DNA of 64,000 nucleotides from Lachnospiraceae bacterium 62-26 (lineage in GTDB: Bacteria > Bacillota > Clostridia > Lachnospirales > Lachnospiraceae), in NCBI GenBank assembly GCA_041223685.1, contig JBCLQR010000015.1; one strand, written 5' to 3'. Under the pieces are notes generated by a model that saw nothing but the letters and a program-made list of their open reading frames with translations, did no database searches and was not told where the DNA came from. Position numbers and translations under genes: made by a program. Of the stretch, positions 39,762 through 61,763 are shown one piece after another; positions within the stretch are counted from its first letter, which is position 1, and the number at the start of each line of letters is the position of its first letter.

Positions 39762-40967
39762 TCATGCCTGCGGTTGTATATCGGAGGCATATCTGTCATA
39801 GTATAGTGATGATTCATCTTCAGTGAGACCAAAATGTTTTTGCAGTTTCATAAGGATTCTTCCCTTGGGGATCTGCTCGTCCAGGTTGTCTAGAATTAAT
39901 GCCTGTATGCCTTCTTCTTTGGCAATCCTGGCTTGTGCTTTAGCGTCCATAGCTTCTTTTTTAATAATTTCAGATTCCTTTTTAATAATTTCAGCTTCTT
40001 CCATAACAATTTCGGCTTCTTTTCTGGCGATTTCAGCCTTTTCTTTAACAATTTCAGCTTCTTTTCTGGCGATTTCAGCTTCCGCTTTAATAGCCTCAAC
40101 TTCTTTCTGGACAGATTTTAGAGCATCATCCCGAACTCCTGCGTGTACGACCTGCTCCAGGCTGCTCATCTGCGTAACCTCCCTCCACAATTCCGCATTG
40201 GCAGAGAAATCGATATATTCTGTTACTGTTGACATAAAGTCCTCTTTATGCGGATACATAATTGCATTCAGGAAACGAAAAAGGTCATATCCATCGTCTT
40301 CCTTACCCCCATTATACACCTCATTGCCTAATTTGATAACTACTAATGTCATCAGATCGTAGTTTTCTCTGGCCACGGAGCCGGGCGAGGTATTCCTGGT
40401 GTTGGTCGTCTCGTAAACGGAAATACTATAGCAGTCCTTCTTTGGGATATCATCCCGGCAGATAAAGATGCTGTAGCATTTGGAGAGAAGGTTGTAATCC
40501 GTGCCTTCATAGGCCAGTGACAGCTGGGAGGACAAACGGCGTGCAAGATAGTAAAATCCCCGCTTTTCAATCGGGTAACCTGGTTTATACGTCTTCTGCG
40601 GTTCCAGATCGATATGCAGGTTGATCTGGATATCTTCTGTAGAGAGCTGGGGATTCCGGGCCTGAAAGGCCAGATCAAAGTTAGTTGTTTTCTCATTGAG
40701 ATGAATGAATTCGGTGTTGCCGCAGCTGACTTTGGTGTTACTCCTTCCCGGCGATACTTCCGTGGTGTTGGTAATGGAATCCGGAACAATAAATTCTTGT
40801 ACTTCCTTTAAACTATATCCTTTGTATTCTGAGACGGTTCCTTTCAAGATAACTGCCAGCACCTCCAAGTGGCGCAGGATTGTTTTGCTTGGAGCGTCCT
40901 TACCGGCCGTGTCTGCGGTAGTCTGCAAAGCGCTAAGGGCAGCAATGCTTCCCTGAAGCTTATCCAT
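39762..40967 (-). CDS. Rpn family recombination-promoting nuclease/putative transposase (PD-(D/E)XK, YhgA-like)
   Basis: 401 aa; N-terminal nuclease-like region, central acidic heptad-like repeats (KEAEIARKEAEIVKEKAEIARKEAEIV), C-terminal ..LILDNLDEQIPKGRILMKLQKHFGL.. tail as in Rpn/Transposase_31 proteins. Confidence 0.6.
   Translation of the reverse strand: MDKLQGSIAALSALQTTADTAGKDAPSKTILRHLEVLAVILKGTVSEYKGYSLKEVQEFIVPDSITNTTEVSPGRSNTKVSCGNTEFIHLNEKTTNFDLAFQARNPQLSTEDIQINLHIDLEPQKTYKPGYPIEKRGFYYLARRLSSQLSLAYEGTDYNLLSKCYSIFICRDDIPKKDCYSISVYETTNTRNTSPGSVARENYDLMTLVVIKLGNEVYNGGKEDDGYDLFRFLNAIMYPHKEDFMSTVTEYIDFSANAELWREVTQMSSLEQVVHAGVRDDALKSVQKEVEAIKAEAEIARKEAEIVKEKAEIARKEAEIVMEEAEIIKKESEIIKKEAMDAKAQARIAKEEGIQALILDNLDEQIPKGRILMKLQKHFGLTEDESSLYYDRYASDIQPQA
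40007..40090. repeat. Two tandem 42-bp units (plus degenerate flanking copies) inside the Rpn-like gene
   Basis: CAATTTC(G/A)GCTTCTTTTCTGGCGATTTCAGC.. repeated at 40007-40048 and 40049-40090; encodes the EAEIxRKEAEI peptide repeats. Confidence 0.7.
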
Positions 40968-53832: not shown

Positions 53833-54888
53833 TCATTTCAGATTCCGTTGTCTCCAAAGGCGCGACCGCAGGCTTTTCAGGAATTTCTCATTTCCGATCA
53901 CTGTGATCATAGGACCAAAGGACATCACTTCGATCAACAGCTCGGTTTCCATGCTCTGATTATAATAGATAAGGCATTCATAGGTGTTCTCATCTATCTT
54001 GGTCGTATTCTTTTCATAATTGGCAAAATGTAACATAGCCCGTTCCAGTGCGTTGCGCTTATTGGCGATATGCAGCCGGAGCGGTTCTTTGTAGTAGGAT
54101 CTTCGGATCAGCGAATTCAGATCAATGTCAGAAGAGAGCCGTTTTTCTGTGAGCCGGGCACTCTGTATGCGGGCGATATTCAGGATGTCAAGCCTCATGC
54201 CGCCACGGCCGGTATTCTTCAGCGCGAGGAGGCGGAACTTGTCGTTTTTGACGGAGTATTCAAGCCTGGCAGGAACATAGTGATGGTGTACGCGCGTTCC
54301 GGCAGGGGAAGTATAATCAAGATCCACATACCGTTTAAGCTTCTGCGCCTTCAAGAGAGTTCGGAAGTTTTGACGGTATGTTTCACTTCTGCCGTAAAGC
54401 CTGTCCTCTTTTTCATCTGCGCCGGCTTCGTCTGACAACGCCGCGGCGCCTGATGATACCGCGTCACTGCCTGACGGCGGTATCGGATAGGGATCTTTGT
54501 CTGCAAACTGGTCATAATAGCAGAACTGTTCCTTACGCCAGAGCGGTTTTACAGACGCAAGCATTTCGTTCAGGGCATCGAATTGCTCCCGGTCAAGAAA
54601 CAGTCCGATGCGGGGATCTGACAGCAAAGCCTTGAGATAAGATTTTTCAAGGGAAGTGAGCGGGACGGCAAAGGAGGGGGAAAGCCTGGACAGATAGAGT
54701 TCGTTGTCCCTGTCAAACAGATTCCATGCCCCGCTCTCCAGTCTTGGGATGATGGAGATCATGCTTTCGCCGAAGCCTTCGTTGTCGATCTGGCGGTAGA
54801 TCTCCTGTATGGTCATGGCATCTGTCCGGCACAGAATATGCCGTAATACCTGGTAATAACAGCTGTATATTTCTGAAAATAATTCCAT
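53833..54888 (-). CDS. WYL domain transcriptional regulator (wHTH-WYL-WCX architecture), downstream member of a tandem pair
   Basis: 351 aa; WYL-domain signature region (..YVPARLEYSVKNDKFRLLALKNTGRGGMRLDILNIARI..), C-terminal WCX-like end (FGPMITVIGNEKFLKSL); RBS AAAAGGAG. Confidence 0.7.
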   Translation of the reverse strand: MELFSEIYSCYYQVLRHILCRTDAMTIQEIYRQIDNEGFGESMISIIPRLESGAWNLFDRDNELYLSRLSPSFAVPLTSLEKSYLKALLSDPRIGLFLDREQFDALNEMLASVKPLWRKEQFCYYDQFADKDPYPIPPSGSDAVSSGAAALSDEAGADEKEDRLYGRSETYRQNFRTLLKAQKLKRYVDLDYTSPAGTRVHHHYVPARLEYSVKNDKFRLLALKNTGRGGMRLDILNIARIQSARLTEKRLSSDIDLNSLIRRSYYKEPLRLHIANKRNALERAMLHFANYEKNTTKIDENTYECLIYYNQSMETELLIEVMSFGPMITVIGNEKFLKSLRSRLWRQRNLK

Positions 54889-54916
54889 GTGAGAACTCCT
54901 TTTTCATTCGCGGCTG

Positions 54917-55025
54917 GTGTAAGGGGACCGATTCGTAAAGGTATTGACTCGTAAAGGAATCGATTCGTAAAGAAATCGACTCGTAAGGGGATTGATTCGT
55001 AAAGAAATCGACTCGTAAGGGGATC
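54917..55025. repeat. Tandem array of 6.5 copies of a 16-bp unit (GAYTCGTAARGRRATY), filling the spacer between the two WYL genes
   Basis: Full units at 54930, 54946, 54962, 54978, 54994, 55010; units alternate GATTCGTAAAGAAATC / GACTCGTAAGGGGATT, giving a 32-bp period; last unit overlaps the stop codon (55024-55026) of the upstream WYL gene. Confidence 0.85.
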
Positions 55026-56289
55026 AGGCGTCTTCGTTTGGCGTATGGGAAGCCGGGGGGATCTCATACATCTCGTACATTTTCTGCAAGTCACGGTAAA
55101 ACCGTTGTTCTACGGATCTGGCGGTACACTTAAGATCAAGGATCCTTCCGATAAATGTGCGGATCCACGGCAGCATTTCATTACAATCAAAGACTTCGAT
55201 CTCGTACTGATAGATATTCCGTGCGATCTTTGTTACGGTTCCGCCCCTGCCTTCCCGTTTCAGCCTGTCAACAATATAATCCTCAGCAGGTTCGAGAGCC
55301 TGTATGGTCATGGTAAGTCTGTCCAGATGATGCGCTCCTTCGCCCTGAAAGGAAACGCCCCACAGCTTCTTGCGGTTCTGATCCAGTGTGTCTGTGAGCC
55401 TGTCATATTCCGGGAAGGGTTCCAGAGGGGTAACACATTTGATGGAATCCAGTCGGAAGCAGGAGAAGCGTTTTCTTCTGTGCACATATCCGCACAGGTA
55501 ACGCCGGCCGCTCCTTGTGCTGATAAATATCTGCAACGGGACGCAGACGGTGGTGGTTACTTTCTCCGAGCGGGAGCTTTTCAGGCTGAGTTCCACACGC
55601 ATTTTCTGGTTCATGGCACAGAGAAGCTTAAGAAGAATCTCATCCTCCAGTGTATGTACGCAGAAGCTGTGTTTTACCCGGAAAGTCTGGTTCTGACAAT
55701 CCATCTGATCGGTTAGTTCATTCCCGATGATTCCAAATACTTCCGCTGTCTGGTAGAAGAAGAGTGCATCCAGTATATCTTCGTTGGAACGGATCCACCG
55801 GATCGGCGCAAGGTTCAGGGAGTAGACGACCGTCTTTCCTTTCTTCTGCTTGTCTAAAAGCCCCTCTCTGGCATAGGCGTTGCATTTGCGCCGGACGGTC
55901 TGTATGTCGAACAGTGCTTCGTATTCCGTGAGAAGGAGGTCTGTGACGGCTTCTGCTGTCAGGGCGCGCCCGTCTTGCAGGATATCTAAGATCAGAAAAT
56001 GCAGGACAATATCGTTGTCGGTAAAGCTCTTCGTCTTCCATACTCTGAACAGGGGATTGGCATCCAGAAGATTACTGTCGATGGCGAGGGAAATATTTGA
56101 GCCGCCGGATACATGATCTTTCCGGACATAGGGGGCAAGCCAGCTCTCCAGCCGTCTCCGCTCATTGTCGTAGGTGCGGGGGCTTTTGGCCTTGAATTCA
56201 TTCCTGGTCTTGAACCCGTAGACGAAAAAATCGCGGACGTATTCCCGTGTCTTGGGAAAGCTCTTTATTAATTCCTGAAAATCAGACAT
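55024..56289 (-). CDS. WYL domain transcriptional regulator (wHTH-WYL-WCX), upstream member of the tandem pair (PafB/PafC-like arrangement)
   Basis: 421 aa; classic WYL motif VPLQIFISTRSGRRYLCGYVHRRKRFSCFRLDSI; C-terminal WCX-like ..WIRTFIGRILDL; strong RBS GTAAGGAGGCA; divergent from rtcB. Confidence 0.75.
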   Translation of the reverse strand: MSDFQELIKSFPKTREYVRDFFVYGFKTRNEFKAKSPRTYDNERRRLESWLAPYVRKDHVSGGSNISLAIDSNLLDANPLFRVWKTKSFTDNDIVLHFLILDILQDGRALTAEAVTDLLLTEYEALFDIQTVRRKCNAYAREGLLDKQKKGKTVVYSLNLAPIRWIRSNEDILDALFFYQTAEVFGIIGNELTDQMDCQNQTFRVKHSFCVHTLEDEILLKLLCAMNQKMRVELSLKSSRSEKVTTTVCVPLQIFISTRSGRRYLCGYVHRRKRFSCFRLDSIKCVTPLEPFPEYDRLTDTLDQNRKKLWGVSFQGEGAHHLDRLTMTIQALEPAEDYIVDRLKREGRGGTVTKIARNIYQYEIEVFDCNEMLPWIRTFIGRILDLKCTARSVEQRFYRDLQKMYEMYEIPPASHTPNEDA

Positions 56290-56472
56290 TGGGTGATGCC
56301 TCCTTACTTCTGTGCCTGTGGGACGGATGTACTTTGTATGGAAGTAATCGTATCACAGACCAGAAGAAAATACCAGAGTTCGCAGCTTTTTTTAAATGAT
56401 TCTGCGGAAAATGCCGGGTATAATACTACCATCAGATGCAGATCAGAAATAAGATGAAAGGGTGTGGAGGAT

Positions 56473-57705
56473 ATGTTTGTAATATCAAATGAGAATACCA
56501 GATTTCCGATAAAAATATGGCTTGAAGATATCAGCCGGCTTGAAGGATCCTGTCTTGAACAGGCGTATCACCTGGCACAGCTTCCGTTTTTGCACAAATG
56601 GGTGTGCCTGATGCCGGACACCCATACGGGCAAAGGAATGCCGATCGGCGGGGTGATCGCGGCGAAGGATGTGATCATACCCAACGCGGCAGGCGTGGAC
56701 ATCGGTTGCGGGATGGATTACATACCGACGAATATTTTGGTGGAAGAGATAAGGAAGGTACAGACGGGAAACGGCACGATCCTCCAGGCAGTCATCGGAA
56801 ATATCATGCGGACGATCCCGCTTGCCACGGAACGTTACAGGGAACCGCAGAAGTCCAGGGTGCTTGACCGGGCGAAGCAGGAGCCGGAAAAGTATCAGGA
56901 GGATCAGGAGCTTCTGCCGTTGATCGAAGACGGGTATTTTCAGGTGGGAAGCCTGGGAGGAGGAAATCATTTCATAGAGCTTCAGGAGGATCAGGACGGC
57001 TGTCTGTGCATCATGATCCATTCGGGCAGCCGCCATCTTGGGAAGGAAATCTGTGATCATTTCCACAAGAAGGCCAGAGAACTGAACCGGAGATGGTACA
57101 GTGAAGTAAAAGACGAATATCAGCTGGCGTTCCTTCCGGTTCAGGCCAGGGAGGGGCAGCAGTATATCAATTGGATGAACCTGGCGCTTGATTATGCTTT
57201 CGAGAACAGAGAGAGGATGCTTGAGAAGACCTGTTCCATTGTGAAGGAGACCATAGAGAAGTATACGGATATGATCGTGGAATTCGGGGAAGAGATCAAC
57301 TGCCACCACAACTATGCGGCGTTGGAGAACCACTATGGAGAAAATGTCTGGGTACACAGGAAAGGCGCAGCCAGGGTGCGGGAAGGCGAGCTGGCTGTAA
57401 TCCCGGGGGCGATGGGTTCCTTCAGCTATGTGGTGGAAGGAACGGGGAATCCCTTATCTTTCTGCTCGTCTTCCCACGGCGCCGGAAGGAATTATTCGAG
57501 GACGGGAGCCATGAGAGAGTTCAGCGTGGAAAAGGTCATGACCGATCTGAAGGAACAGGGCGTCGTGCTTGGGAAACGCAGGAAAAATGATGTGGCAGAA
57601 GAGTGCCGGTTTGCCTATAAAGATATCGACCAGGTAATGGCACAGCAGATGGACCTGGTTACGCCGGTCAGAAGACTTCGGACGGTCGGCGTCGTGAAGG
57701 GATAG
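56473..57705 (+). CDS. rtcB: RtcB family RNA 3'-phosphate/2',3'-cyclic-phosphate ligase
   Basis: Start ATG 56473 (MFVISNE.., RBS GTGGAGGAT); metal-binding and catalytic motifs MPDTHTGKGMPIGGV, GGGNHFIELQ, IHSGSRHLG, CHHNYAALENH; the track start 56464 is a GTG. Confidence 0.9.
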   Translation: MFVISNENTRFPIKIWLEDISRLEGSCLEQAYHLAQLPFLHKWVCLMPDTHTGKGMPIGGVIAAKDVIIPNAAGVDIGCGMDYIPTNILVEEIRKVQTGNGTILQAVIGNIMRTIPLATERYREPQKSRVLDRAKQEPEKYQEDQELLPLIEDGYFQVGSLGGGNHFIELQEDQDGCLCIMIHSGSRHLGKEICDHFHKKARELNRRWYSEVKDEYQLAFLPVQAREGQQYINWMNLALDYAFENRERMLEKTCSIVKETIEKYTDMIVEFGEEINCHHNYAALENHYGENVWVHRKGAARVREGELAVIPGAMGSFSYVVEGTGNPLSFCSSSHGAGRNYSRTGAMREFSVEKVMTDLKEQGVVLGKRRKNDVAEECRFAYKDIDQVMAQQMDLVTPVRRLRTVGVVKG

Positions 57706-60434: not shown

Positions 60435-60575
60435 ATAGTTCTATATTGTGCAGATAACTGGCGGAAACCGGCTTTTCCTGCGTCTTTGGCATACAGGAAT
60501 TGTGAGGGATTGGAAGCCTGGGAGGTGAATGTTATACAAGGAGAGGGAAAGAAGGGCGAAGAACCAGGGGAGAGG

Positions 60576-60899
60576 CTGGAAAATGGTGAGAATCAGGCGA
60601 TTGGGAAGGATCAGAAAAATGGTGAGAATTTGGCAATTGGTGAGAGCTTGAAAAATGGTGAGAATTTGGCAATCGGGGAGAGCCTGAAAAGTGGTGGAAA
60701 GCAGGCAATCGAGAAGAATCAGGAGGCCGGGAAGAATCAGAAAATGGAGGAAAGTCTGAAAAATGGGGAGAATTTGGCAGCCGGGAAGAATGTGAAAAAT
60801 GGTGAGAGTCTGAAAAACGGAAAGAATCAGAAAGCCGGGAAGAATCAGAAAATGGAGGAAAGCCTGAAAAATGGTGAATATCAGGCGGCCGGGAAGAAG
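60576..60899. repeat. 18-bp tandem repeat, about 18 units (CWGAAAAATGGTGAGAAT-like), in-frame hexapeptide repeat or upstream noncoding minisatellite
   Basis: Units readable every 18 nt from 60576 to 60899; translate in the polyferredoxin frame as (K/E)NGEN(L/Q)A(I/A)G(E/K)S repeats. Confidence 0.8.
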
Positions 60900-60941
60900 A
60901 CGGCGGCACGAAAGTCGGGATTATACGGGAGATGTACGGGG

Positions 60942-61763
60942 GTGTATGAAGGGAAACGTCATGGCGTTCAGGCTTTGTGGGCATTGCTTACTAATAGCTA
61001 TCTGGCGGGATTTGTGCAGGGGAAAATATACAGAGGAAGTCTTAAGAATCTGTGCGTGCCGGGCTTAAACTGTTATTCTTGCCCGGGAGCTGTCGGCTCC
61101 TGCCCGATCGGCGCTATGCAGGCAGTCATCGGGAGCTGGAACTTTAAGCTTGCATTTTATGTGGCAGGCTTCCTGATGTTTGTTGGGGCGCTGATGGGAA
61201 GATTTGTCTGTGGATGGCTGTGTCCATTCGGGCTGATCCAGGATCTGCTGTACAAGGTTCCGTTTTTTAAGAAAATCGAGAGCTTTCGGGGGGATAAGTC
61301 TGCGCGGAAGCTGAAATATGTGATACTTGTTGTATTTGTGATCCTTCTGCCGATGTTCCTGGTGGATATCCTGGGACAGGGGGCGCCGTATTTCTGTAAG
61401 CTGATCTGTCCGGCCGGGACGCTGGAGGGAGGAATTCCCCTTGTCCTGCTCAACAAGTCCATGCGAAGCGCGGTGGGATGGCTGTATGCATGGAAAAATG
61501 TGCTGCTGGCGGTTACCGTCATTTTCTCGGTTCTGATCTACCGGCCGTTCTGCAAATATATCTGTCCGTTGGGAGCGGTCTATTCTGTATTCAATCCCGT
61601 CTCGGTGTTCCGATACCGGATAGATGATGATAAATGTACCGGCTGCGGGATCTGCGCAAAGGTCTGTAAGATGCAGGTGAACCCGGTGAAGAATGCAAAT
61701 CATCCGGAGTGTATCCGATGCGGAGTTTGTAAAGCGTCATGTCCTGTAAAGGCGATACGGTAA
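60942..61763 (+). CDS. Polytopic 4Fe-4S-binding membrane protein (NapH/MauN-like polyferredoxin)
   Basis: Conserved core starts ..HGVQALWALLTNSYLAGF.. with CxxC pairs in TM helices and C-terminal 2x CxxCxxCxxxCP; proposed GTG start 60942 (RBS GGGAGA); the track ORF extends to a TTG at 60486 through the repeat region and an in-frame ATG lies at 60744, so the start is uncertain. Confidence 0.6.
   Translation: MYEGKRHGVQALWALLTNSYLAGFVQGKIYRGSLKNLCVPGLNCYSCPGAVGSCPIGAMQAVIGSWNFKLAFYVAGFLMFVGALMGRFVCGWLCPFGLIQDLLYKVPFFKKIESFRGDKSARKLKYVILVVFVILLPMFLVDILGQGAPYFCKLICPAGTLEGGIPLVLLNKSMRSAVGWLYAWKNVLLAVTVIFSVLIYRPFCKYICPLGAVYSVFNPVSVFRYRIDDDKCTGCGICAKVCKMQVNPVKNANHPECIRCGVCKASCPVKAIR

What the first reader, a model, noticed from the sequence alone, without database searches (positions are those of the whole stretch)
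54917..55025. Exact 16-bp x6.5 tandem array (32-bp period) filling the entire spacer between the two WYL genes
The 135-bp intergenic space between the stop of the upstream WYL gene and the start of the downstream one is almost entirely a head-to-tail array GATTCGTAAAGGTATT GACTCGTAAAGGAATC GATTCGTAAAGAAATC GACTCGTAAGGGGATT GATTCGTAAAGAAATC GACTCGTAAGGGGATC. The last unit overlaps the upstream gene's TGA. Adjacent units create CGATT..AATCG inverted half-sites, as expected for dimeric HTH binding, and if the two genes are co-transcribed the array sits inside the mRNA. It could be an autoregulatory operator array for the WYL pair, an RNA structural element setting the stoichiometry of the two subunits, or a phase-variable copy-number repeat. 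It is not CRISPR (no spacers) and not coding: the apparent ORF 54813..55094 (- strand) is an artefact of the repeat.
Basis: seen in the sequence. Interest (0 to 1): 0.6.

Follow-up and report, generated by a model that had tools for sequence, protein, structure and literature searches.

The report
Strain-variable 16-bp repeat between WYL genes
The repeat is real, but it is an ordinary variable-number tandem repeat: it is young, confined to one gut Lachnospiraceae species, changes unit number between strains, and shows no sign of being a protein-binding operator or a folded RNA.

Summary
The array is real. It lies at window 54919-55025, with period 16 (5.6 copies, 77% matches, no indels) and a higher-order period of 32 (3.3 copies, 86%). 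It fills about 105 of the 135 nt between the stop of WYL1 (55024-56289, -) and the start of WYL2 (53833-54888, -).

- **Distribution.** About 86 orthologous rtcB<->WYL1->WYL2 loci from other Lachnospiraceae keep the genes but never the array. Their spacers run from a 26-nt overlap to about 140 nt, and some hold inserted genes. The nearest relatives (79-83% WYL1 identity) have spacers of 3-36 nt or an unrelated 131 nt.
- **Variation within the species.** There are three length alleles of 4.5, 6.5 and 7.5 units (103, 135 and 151 nt). Each was seen in at least two independent assemblies.
- **RNA.** The sense RNA folds worse than shuffled sequence (z = +1.4), and Rfam gives no match.
- **Operator test.** The unit does not recur in the rtcB/WYL1 promoter. 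That promoter carries a different, strongly conserved box that is unrelated to the array.
- **Coding test.** The overlapping 93-aa ORF is broken by stops in one allele.

Best reading: a slippage-generated VNTR (variable-number tandem repeat) tolerated in an unconstrained intercistronic spacer, which at most modulates WYL2 expression. Interest is low.

The parts
54919..55025 (-). Tandem array of 6.5 units of 16 bp. On the gene strand the consensus is RATYYCYTTACGARTC. There is a 32-bp higher-order period, and the first unit (gene strand) overlaps the WYL1 TGA.
   Evidence: TRF; the repeat finder family D1; motif and PWM scans; sequence read directly.
55024..56289 (-). WYL1, 421 aa, HTH-WYL regulator and upstream gene of the pair.
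   Evidence: ORF; Pfam WYL PF13280, E 1.8e-7; weak PDB sequence match to PafBC chains 7p5x/9fnd; 3393 homologues.
53833..54888 (-). WYL2, 351 aa, divergent wHTH-WYL-WCX-like paralogue and downstream gene of the pair.
   Evidence: ORF; no Pfam or NCBIfam hit; the AF2 model matches only DriD, PafBC, CapW and BrxR; NCBI names homologues 'WYL domain-containing protein'.
54896..54902 (-). Shine-Dalgarno sequence of WYL2 (AAAGGAG, 7 nt before the ATG), in the 30-nt non-repeat remainder of the spacer.
   Evidence: Read from the sequence. AAGGAGTTC is also present before WYL2 in the relatives L012 and L013.
56376..56402 (+). Conserved promoter box GAGTTCGCAGCTTTTTTTAAATGATTC, 16 nt upstream of the rtcB -10 hexamer (TATAAT, 56419-56424). 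It is the probable true operator of the WYL pair. It is context only, not part of the array and unrelated to it.
   Evidence: Present in all 58 rtcB<->WYL1 intergenic regions examined, at fixed distance from the -10. Unique in the window at 39 bits, with the next best hit at 0 bits.
56473..57705 (+). rtcB RNA ligase, divergent from WYL1 and the presumed target of the pair (context). The listed ORF starts at GTG 56464. ATG 56473, preceded by GGAGG, matches the 410-aa gene calls.
   Evidence: Pfam RtcB, E 1e-108; gene calls of 410 aa in L001-L009.

Best explanation
The array is a young, lineage-specific variable-number tandem repeat (VNTR, or minisatellite). A roughly 16-nt stretch just downstream of the WYL1 stop codon was amplified by slipped-strand mispairing or unequal recombination. 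The amplification went first in 16-bp steps, whose units have since diverged, and more recently in a 32-bp step that left two nearly identical periods. The array lies inside the WYL1-WYL2 bicistronic mRNA as an unstructured, pyrimidine-rich spacer. It persists because the length and sequence of this spacer are essentially unconstrained in this operon family, and WYL2 is translated from its own Shine-Dalgarno sequence. It probably has no sequence-specific function. At most, its length mildly changes WYL2 expression relative to WYL1.

Shown here: the array exists, it is restricted to one species, it varies in length between strains, it lacks RNA structure, and it is unrelated to the conserved promoter box. 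Inferred: the slippage origin, co-transcription of the two genes, and neutrality.
For: 1. **Species restriction.** In 80 species-representative loci and six further loci of the nearest relatives, the trio rtcB<->WYL1->WYL2 is conserved. The spacer ranges from overlaps of 17 or 26 nt, through 3-141 nt, to inserted genes. The core CYTTAYGARTC occurs once by chance in about 665 kb of these loci, against 4-7 times in every complete spacer of the window's species.
2. **Length polymorphism with identical flanks.** The 103-nt form is in L010 and L101, the 135-nt form in the window and in L001, L002, L003, L007 and L099, and the 151-nt form in L102 and L106. L007 and L010 have almost identical WYL1 and WYL2 yet differ by one 32-bp period, so unit gain or loss outpaces substitution.
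3. **No special sequence constraint.** Units carry substitutions between strains (TTACGA to TTATGA, GAATC to GAATT). The array shows 2 substitutions in 107 nt between the window and L102, against 96.8% and 98.2% nucleotide identity for the flanking genes.
4. **Hierarchy typical of stepwise duplication.** Matches are 77% at period 16 and 86% at period 32, and there is a 31-nt exact repeat.
5. **Possible local origin.** The nearest relative L011 has TACCTTATGCGTC directly after its stop codon, resembling the first unit TCCCCTTATGAATC of L102. This is suggestive only.
6. **No RNA structure and no transcription signals.** Fold z-scores are +1.41 (sense) and +2.07 (antisense). Rfam gives no match. 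No promoter-like or terminator-like site lies in the array.
7. **Such arrays are common here.** There are 19 arrays of period >= 10 in about 59 kb of non-coding DNA in the related loci, or 0.32 per kb.
Against: - The array is kept in every strain of the species seen so far (at least 4.5 units), and no allele has lost it entirely.
- Its units were identical across several strains that differ at two positions in the 12 nt just downstream. The numbers are too small to distinguish constraint from recent origin or concerted evolution.
- The consistent 16-bp phase with a well-kept TTACGA core would also suit a binding array.
- Neutrality cannot be shown by sequence analysis alone, and no expression data were available.
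Confidence: 0.7

Rival explanations
1. RNA-level cis element without structure. The unstructured, C/U-rich repeat in the intercistronic mRNA acts as a landing pad, for example a Rho rut-like site, an RNase entry site, or single-stranded RNA bound by the WYL domains themselves. Its length would set the WYL2:WYL1 ratio.
For: The sense strand of the array is C-rich and G-poor (31 C against 15 G in 107 nt) and less structured than shuffles. It lies inside a probable bicistronic transcript, with no terminator-like or promoter-like site, and the genes overlap in about 10 related species. WYL domains of solved relatives bind single-stranded nucleic acid, as the titles of the PDB hits and the papers listed state.
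Against: Nothing comparable is conserved in any other species with the same gene pair. Many relatives couple the genes by overlap, so no such element is needed for the system to work. C>G composition is a low-specificity criterion. No expression data exist, and Rho was not looked for.
Confidence: 0.12
2. DNA operator or decoy array. The 16-bp units are binding sites for the WYL pair or for another HTH protein, and they autoregulate or titrate the regulator.
For: The direct repeats are regularly phased with a conserved TTACGA core and GATT/AATC ends. The array sits inside the regulator's own operon.
Against: The unit is absent from the rtcB/WYL1 promoter and from the rest of the 64 kb. The promoter carries a different box conserved in 58 of 58 species, and its PWM scores -30 bits on the array. 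Cores mutate between strains (TTATGA). Palindromic junctions are inconsistent.
Confidence: 0.08
3. Adaptive phase or contingency locus. Unit number changes at high frequency and switches or tunes WYL2, and hence rtcB control, between states.
For: Three length alleles exist in one species. Near-identical strains (L007 and L010) differ by 32 bp.
Against: Alleles largely track strain lineages, and six assemblies with 99.9-100% identical WYL1 all carry 6.5 units. The array lies in neither a reading frame nor a recognisable promoter, so length changes have no obvious on/off consequence. No within-sample heterogeneity could be measured.
Confidence: 0.07
4. Type III toxin-antitoxin-like RNA repeat array, or a small coding gene (ORF 54813-55094, - strand).
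For: A tandem repeat array directly upstream of a protein gene resembles the ToxI-ToxN layout (from general knowledge). The array is free of stop codons in all three sense frames in the window.
Against: The downstream protein has a WYL-regulator fold, not a ToxN/AbiQ-type RNase fold, and it occurs without any array in all other species. The RNA units are not structured. Length alleles differ by 16 or 32 nt, and the ORF is broken by stops in L106.
Confidence: 0.01

Closest known systems
Bacterial intergenic VNTR / minisatellite loci (the kind used for MLVA strain typing)
   Same: Head-to-tail units of 10-100 bp in non-coding DNA. Unit number differs between strains while the flanks stay identical. 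Units diverge by point substitutions and show higher-order periodicity from stepwise duplication. The array is absent from sister species.
   Different: Nothing essential differs. This one happens to lie inside a regulator operon, between two co-transcribed genes, so it is transcribed.
PafBC (mycobacterial heterodimeric WYL activator) and its promoter element. This is the gene context, not the array.
   Same: Two tandem wHTH-WYL-WCX paralogues (fold matches, weak sequence match). A conserved box lies immediately upstream of a -10 hexamer in the target promoter, comparable in position to PafBC-dependent promoters (PMC8635444, title and abstract; exact positions are from memory).
   Different: The target here is the RNA ligase gene rtcB rather than DNA-repair genes. 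The box sequence differs. No biochemical data exist. The repeat array has no counterpart in PafBC loci.
Iterons and operator arrays (regularly spaced direct-repeat binding sites)
   Same: Phased direct repeats of about 16-22 bp.
   Different: The motif does not recur at any regulated promoter, there is no replication or partition context, it is not conserved across species, and its cores mutate between strains.
Type III toxin-antitoxin RNA repeat arrays (ToxI-like)
   Same: A tandem repeat array just upstream of a protein-coding gene in the same transcript.
   Different: Units here are 16 or 32 nt rather than about 34-45 nt, and they are unstructured. The downstream protein is a WYL regulator, not an endoribonuclease, and the array is dispensable in all relatives.

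Membership tests
VNTR / minisatellite | Head-to-tail repetition of a unit of at least 10 bp, beyond what chance gives | tested here: met
   TRF scores 110 and 165. Six motif matches against 0.85 expected, with 0 of 100 shuffles reaching six.
VNTR / minisatellite | Unit number varies between strains while the flanks are conserved | tested here: met
   Spacers of 103, 135 and 151 nt (4.5, 6.5 and 7.5 units), each seen in at least two independent assemblies.
VNTR / minisatellite | Non-coding, with no frame constraint on length changes | tested here: met
   Alleles differ by 16 or 32 nt, and the overlapping ORF is broken in L106.
Operator / iteron array of the WYL regulators | The motif recurs at the regulated promoter(s) | tested here: not met
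   No match with up to 2 mismatches, and no PWM hit above 13 bits outside the array. The promoter box PWM scores -30 bits on the array.
Operator / iteron array of the WYL regulators | Conserved together with the regulator genes across species | tested here: not met
   Absent from about 86 orthologous loci.
Operator / iteron array of the WYL regulators | Specific protein binding | not testable with these tools
   Needs EMSA or footprinting.
Structured cis-regulatory RNA (riboswitch, attenuator, leader) | A fold more stable than composition predicts | tested here: not met
   z = +1.41 for the sense strand and +2.07 for the antisense strand.
Structured cis-regulatory RNA (riboswitch, attenuator, leader) | Match to a curated RNA family | tested here: not met
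   No Rfam match at gathering score over the window, nor at E <= 1 on 54800-55120.
Structured cis-regulatory RNA (riboswitch, attenuator, leader) | Covariation supporting base pairs | not testable with these tools
   The element exists in one species only, so there is no divergent alignment to test.
CRISPR array | Repeats separated by unique spacers of similar length | tested here: not met
   The units are contiguous at a start-to-start spacing of 16.
Dispersed repeat family (REP / BIME / MITE) | Further copies elsewhere in the genome or in other genomes | tested here: not met
   None in the 64-kb window. The metagenome scan found only this locus, plus one unrelated array in L104/L105. Nothing was found in viral contigs, plasmids or phages. 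The rest of the host genome was not available.
Type III toxin-antitoxin | The downstream gene encodes a ToxN/AbiQ-type endoribonuclease, and the repeats are conserved with it | tested here: not met
   The downstream protein has a WYL-regulator fold, and its orthologues lack arrays.

The most novel reading that the evidence does not exclude
The array is a strain-variable 'tuning knob'. As unstructured C/U-rich RNA between the two cistrons, its length would set the WYL2:WYL1 subunit ratio of a PafBC-like heterodimer that controls the RNA ligase gene rtcB. It could act through Rho or RNase access, or by being bound in cis as single-stranded RNA by the WYL domains it separates. Different strains would then carry different set-points of an RNA-damage response.
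Probability: 0.06. Interest if true: 0.55.

Novelty: new member of a known kind. Interest (0 to 1): 0.18.

Why it matters
The array itself matters little. It could serve as a strain-typing marker for one uncultured mouse-gut Lachnospiraceae species, and it causes assembly breaks: Logan contigs stop exactly at its 31-nt exact repeat.

Its main value is negative. It should not be taken for the operator of the WYL pair. The comparative data collected to test it point to the real candidate operator, a box conserved in 58 of 58 species just upstream of the rtcB -10 hexamer. They also point to a widespread PafBC-like WYL pair divergent from rtcB in Lachnospiraceae. That system would be the more rewarding thing to study.

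Tried and rejected
- **Rfam.** Nothing at gathering score over the whole window, and nothing at E <= 1 on the region.
- **RNA folding.** Both strands fold less stably than shuffles.
- **Promoter and terminator scan.** No site in the array.
- **Unit elsewhere.** No hit in the rest of the window by degenerate pattern or PWM. Viral contigs gave 0. Plasmids and phages gave no blastn match.
- **Metagenome scan.** This found only the same locus, plus one array of a 15/16-identical unit (L104/L105) beside a Pif1-2B-domain ORF of unknown origin. I judged that plausibly coincidental. A rough estimate from first principles is about 1e-6 per 16-bp array once phase and strand are allowed for. I did not pursue it further.
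- **Relation to the promoter box.** The array is unrelated to the conserved rtcB promoter box.
- **WYL1 versus WYL2.** Neither BLASTP nor hhalign detects homology. Only the structure-based search does.
- **Hot-spot test.** I asked whether the WYL1-WYL2 spacer is a hot spot for tandem repeats. There are 2-3 arrays in 3.5 kb of spacers, against about 1.1 expected from the non-coding background of 0.32 per kb. This is not significant.
- **Rejected readings.** Type III TA, a coding ORF and CRISPR are rejected for the reasons given in the membership table.
- **Literature.** The held library gave no paper linking WYL regulators with rtcB in Firmicutes. Burroughs & Aravind 2016 is not held.

Full report
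**1. Observation**

The + strand of window 54919-55025 carries a head-to-tail array. TRF reports period 16 (54929-55018, 5.6 copies, 77% matches, no indels, score 110) and period 32 (54919-55025, 3.3 copies, 86% matches, score 165).

Both flanking genes are on the - strand:
- WYL1 is 55024-56289 (421 aa).
- WYL2 is 53833-54888 (351 aa).
- The spacer 54889-55023 is 135 nt.

On the gene strand the spacer reads TGA|TCCCCTTACGAGTC GATTTCTTTACGAATC AATCCCCTTACGAGTC GATTTCTTTACGAATC GATTCCTTTACGAGTC AATACCTTTACGAATC GGTCCCCTTACACC. Thirty non-repeat nucleotides follow, and these contain the WYL2 Shine-Dalgarno sequence AAAGGAG.

The array is well beyond chance:
- The degenerate unit matches six times, all in the array. 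Shuffles give 0.85 on average and never six (0 of 100).
- A unit PWM scores 23-26 bits inside the array and at most 13 bits elsewhere in the 64 kb.

The phase is exact but the units are not. About 105 of the 135 nt are repeat. The claimed inverted half-sites are inconsistent from junction to junction.

**2. Gene context**

WYL1 has a Pfam WYL domain. WYL2 has no Pfam or NCBIfam hit and no detectable sequence or profile similarity to WYL1.

An AlphaFold2 model of WYL2 has mean pLDDT 61, with the C-terminal half near 80. Its 32 best PDB matches are all wHTH-WYL-WCX regulators (DriD, PafBC, CapW, BrxR, the Cas13d accessory WYL1), with E-values from 3e-9 to 3e-4.

The pair is divergent from rtcB, which has a Pfam RtcB match at E 1e-108. 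The arrangement looks like a PafBC-style pair of WYL paralogues next to an RNA-ligase gene.

**3. Comparative test across species**

A scan of one genome per GTDB species with a WYL1 alignment returned 80 loci, all Lachnospiraceae and mostly mouse-gut MAGs, at 62-83% WYL1 identity. tblastn shows that the trio rtcB<->WYL1->WYL2 is conserved in nearly all of them.

The WYL1-WYL2 spacer is highly variable:
- about 10 species have overlaps of 17 or 26 nt;
- most have 4-66 nt;
- eight have 102-141 nt;
- seven have 300-3700 nt, some with inserted genes.

None contains the unit. The core CYTTAYGARTC occurs once in about 665 kb of these loci, against 4-7 times in every complete spacer of the window's own species.

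The nearest relatives show the same picture. L012, L013 and the loci of P0003, P0006 and P0007 (79-82% identity) have spacers of 3-36 nt. L011 (83%) has an unrelated, non-repetitive 131 nt.

**4. Variation within the species**

Contigs encoding identical or 97-99% identical WYL1 or WYL2 show three spacer lengths with the same flanks:

| Spacer | Units | Seen in |
|---|---|---|
| 135 nt | 6.5 | window, L001, L002, L003, L007, L099 |
| 103 nt | 4.5 (one 32-bp period fewer) | L010, L101 |
| 151 nt | 7.5 (one extra 16-bp unit at the 5' end) | L102, L106 |

Many Logan contigs stop exactly at the 31-nt exact repeat of the 6.5-unit form. That is expected for a k = 31 assembly graph. Logan contigs run straight through the 4.5- and 7.5-unit forms, which have no repeated 31-mer. 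This argues that those lengths are real and not assembly collapses.

Units also carry substitutions between strains: TTACGA to TTATGA and GAATC to GAATT. Between the window and L102 the array has 2 substitutions in 107 nt, while the flanking genes are 96.8% and 98.2% identical. The array is therefore neither specially conserved nor specially fast.

L007 and L010 are almost identical in both genes yet differ by one 32-bp period. Unit gain and loss is thus faster than point substitution, which is the signature of a VNTR.

**5. Functional tests that could be run**

- **RNA structure.** The 156-nt sense RNA has MFE -22.1 kcal/mol against -26.9 +/- 3.4 for shuffles (z = +1.41). The antisense gives z = +2.07. 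Rfam is silent.
- **Transcription signals.** The scan finds no sigma-70-like promoter or intrinsic terminator in the array. Together with the overlapping genes in relatives, this supports co-transcription, so the array lies within the mRNA.
- **Operator.** All 58 rtcB<->WYL1 intergenic regions examined share a box, GTTCGCA(A/G)CTTTTTT(G/T)AAATGAT, followed by 18 nt and TATAAT on the rtcB strand. In the window it lies at 56376-56402 and scores 39 bits, with the next best hit in 64 kb at 0 bits. The best score inside the array is -30 bits. The likely operator of the WYL pair is therefore elsewhere and unrelated to the array.
- **Coding.** The length alleles differ by 16 or 32 nt, and the 93-aa ORF 54813-55094 is interrupted by stops in L106.

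**6. Is the unit found elsewhere?**

Viral contigs gave nothing, and plasmids and phages gave no match.

The metagenome scan for two adjacent units found two more contigs of the same locus (L102, L103). It also found one unrelated array, in L104/L105: 16.7 copies of a unit that is 15/16 identical to the window unit, next to an ORF with a Pif1 2B domain. That ORF has no phage or plasmid match.

The scan was designed to find exactly this pattern in a very large collection, so one such hit is plausibly coincidental. I leave it as an unexplained aside.

**7. Background rate of such arrays**

In the 80 related loci there are 19 arrays of period >= 10 in about 59 kb of approximately non-coding DNA, or 0.32 per kb. 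The WYL1-WYL2 spacers of other species hold 2-3 unrelated arrays (L050, L069, L088) in 3.5 kb, against about 1.1 expected. Tandem arrays are common in these genomes, and this spacer is not a significant hot spot.

**8. Conclusion**

The array is best explained as a young, species-specific VNTR. It was probably generated by slippage from sequence just downstream of the WYL1 stop codon. The relative L011 has TACCTTATGCGTC at that position, which resembles the first unit, but this is only suggestive. The array is tolerated in a spacer whose length is free to vary.

A sequence-independent effect of spacer length on WYL2 expression cannot be excluded and is the main rival. An operator array, a structured RNA, a type III TA array, a coding ORF and CRISPR are each contradicted by at least one test made here.

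The array belongs to a known kind, and interest is low. The by-product has more potential: a conserved promoter box and a widespread PafBC-like WYL pair next to rtcB. The held literature did not turn up a description of that system.

Noticed in passing
window 56376-56402 (+), with the -10 hexamer at 56419-56424; the same position in L012-L090: A 23-27-nt box, GTTCGCA(A/G)CTTTTTT(G/T)AAATGAT, followed by 18 nt and TATAAT on the rtcB strand. It is present in all 58 Lachnospiraceae rtcB<->WYL1 divergent promoters examined and is unique in the 64-kb window. It is the probable operator of the WYL pair, and it abuts or replaces the -35 region as in PafBC-type promoters. I did not find it described in the held literature.
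   Followed up: partly
window 53833-54888 (-): WYL2 escapes Pfam, NCBIfam and profile-profile detection, yet its predicted fold matches only wHTH-WYL-WCX regulators. It has a low-confidence, probably disordered insert at about residues 116-166, which makes it roughly 30 aa longer than most orthologues (319-330 aa).
   Followed up: partly
L104 1605-1871 and L105 1497-1591 (OMLO01000144.1, OMLO01155027.1): A 16.7-copy tandem array of a 16-mer (GATTACTTTACGAATC-like) that is 15/16 identical to the window unit, in an unrelated context next to an ORF with a Pif1 2B domain. The source organism is unknown. The similarity is possibly a coincidence of the targeted scan.
   Followed up: partly
L004-L006, L008, L009 (3' ends) and L092-L098, L100 (5' ends): Logan contigs of this species break exactly at the 31-nt exact repeat inside the array. 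This separates WYL1 and WYL2 onto different contigs, so the repeat is a systematic assembly breakpoint.
   Followed up: yes
spacers of L050 (2926-2999), L069 (5290-5386), L088 (5282-5315): Unrelated tandem repeats (34 bp x2.2, 38 bp x2.6, 14 bp x2.4) occur in the same WYL1-WYL2 spacer in other species. L061 and L062 carry a single copy of the L069 unit. The number is not significantly above the non-coding background.
   Followed up: yes
L014, L038, L057, L059, L070 (between WYL1 and WYL2): In several species 0.6-3.7 kb of extra DNA, apparently including genes, is inserted between WYL1 and WYL2. In L038, L057 and L059 the insert begins with a similar small ORF (MEK/RINREDMLELTRRMTLKRNCFDRI...). 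I did not examine these inserts.
   Followed up: no
window 53833-54888 compared with L001, L007, L010, L103, L106: Between strains, WYL2 shows more non-synonymous than synonymous differences (for example 9 against 3 codons in L007 and L010). WYL1 shows mostly synonymous changes (25 against 10 in L102). The window's own WYL2 carries minority residues at positions 31, 127 and 244.
   Followed up: partly
window 39951-40110 and 60580-60898: The other large TRF arrays in the window are coding repeats. One is a KEAEIARKEAEIV-type coiled-coil repeat in the 401-aa ORF 39762-40967 (-). The other is a KNGENLAIGESL-type repeat at the N-terminus of the 425-aa ORF 60486-61763 (+), whose C-terminal part is cysteine-rich and looks like a membrane ferredoxin-type protein.
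   Followed up: no
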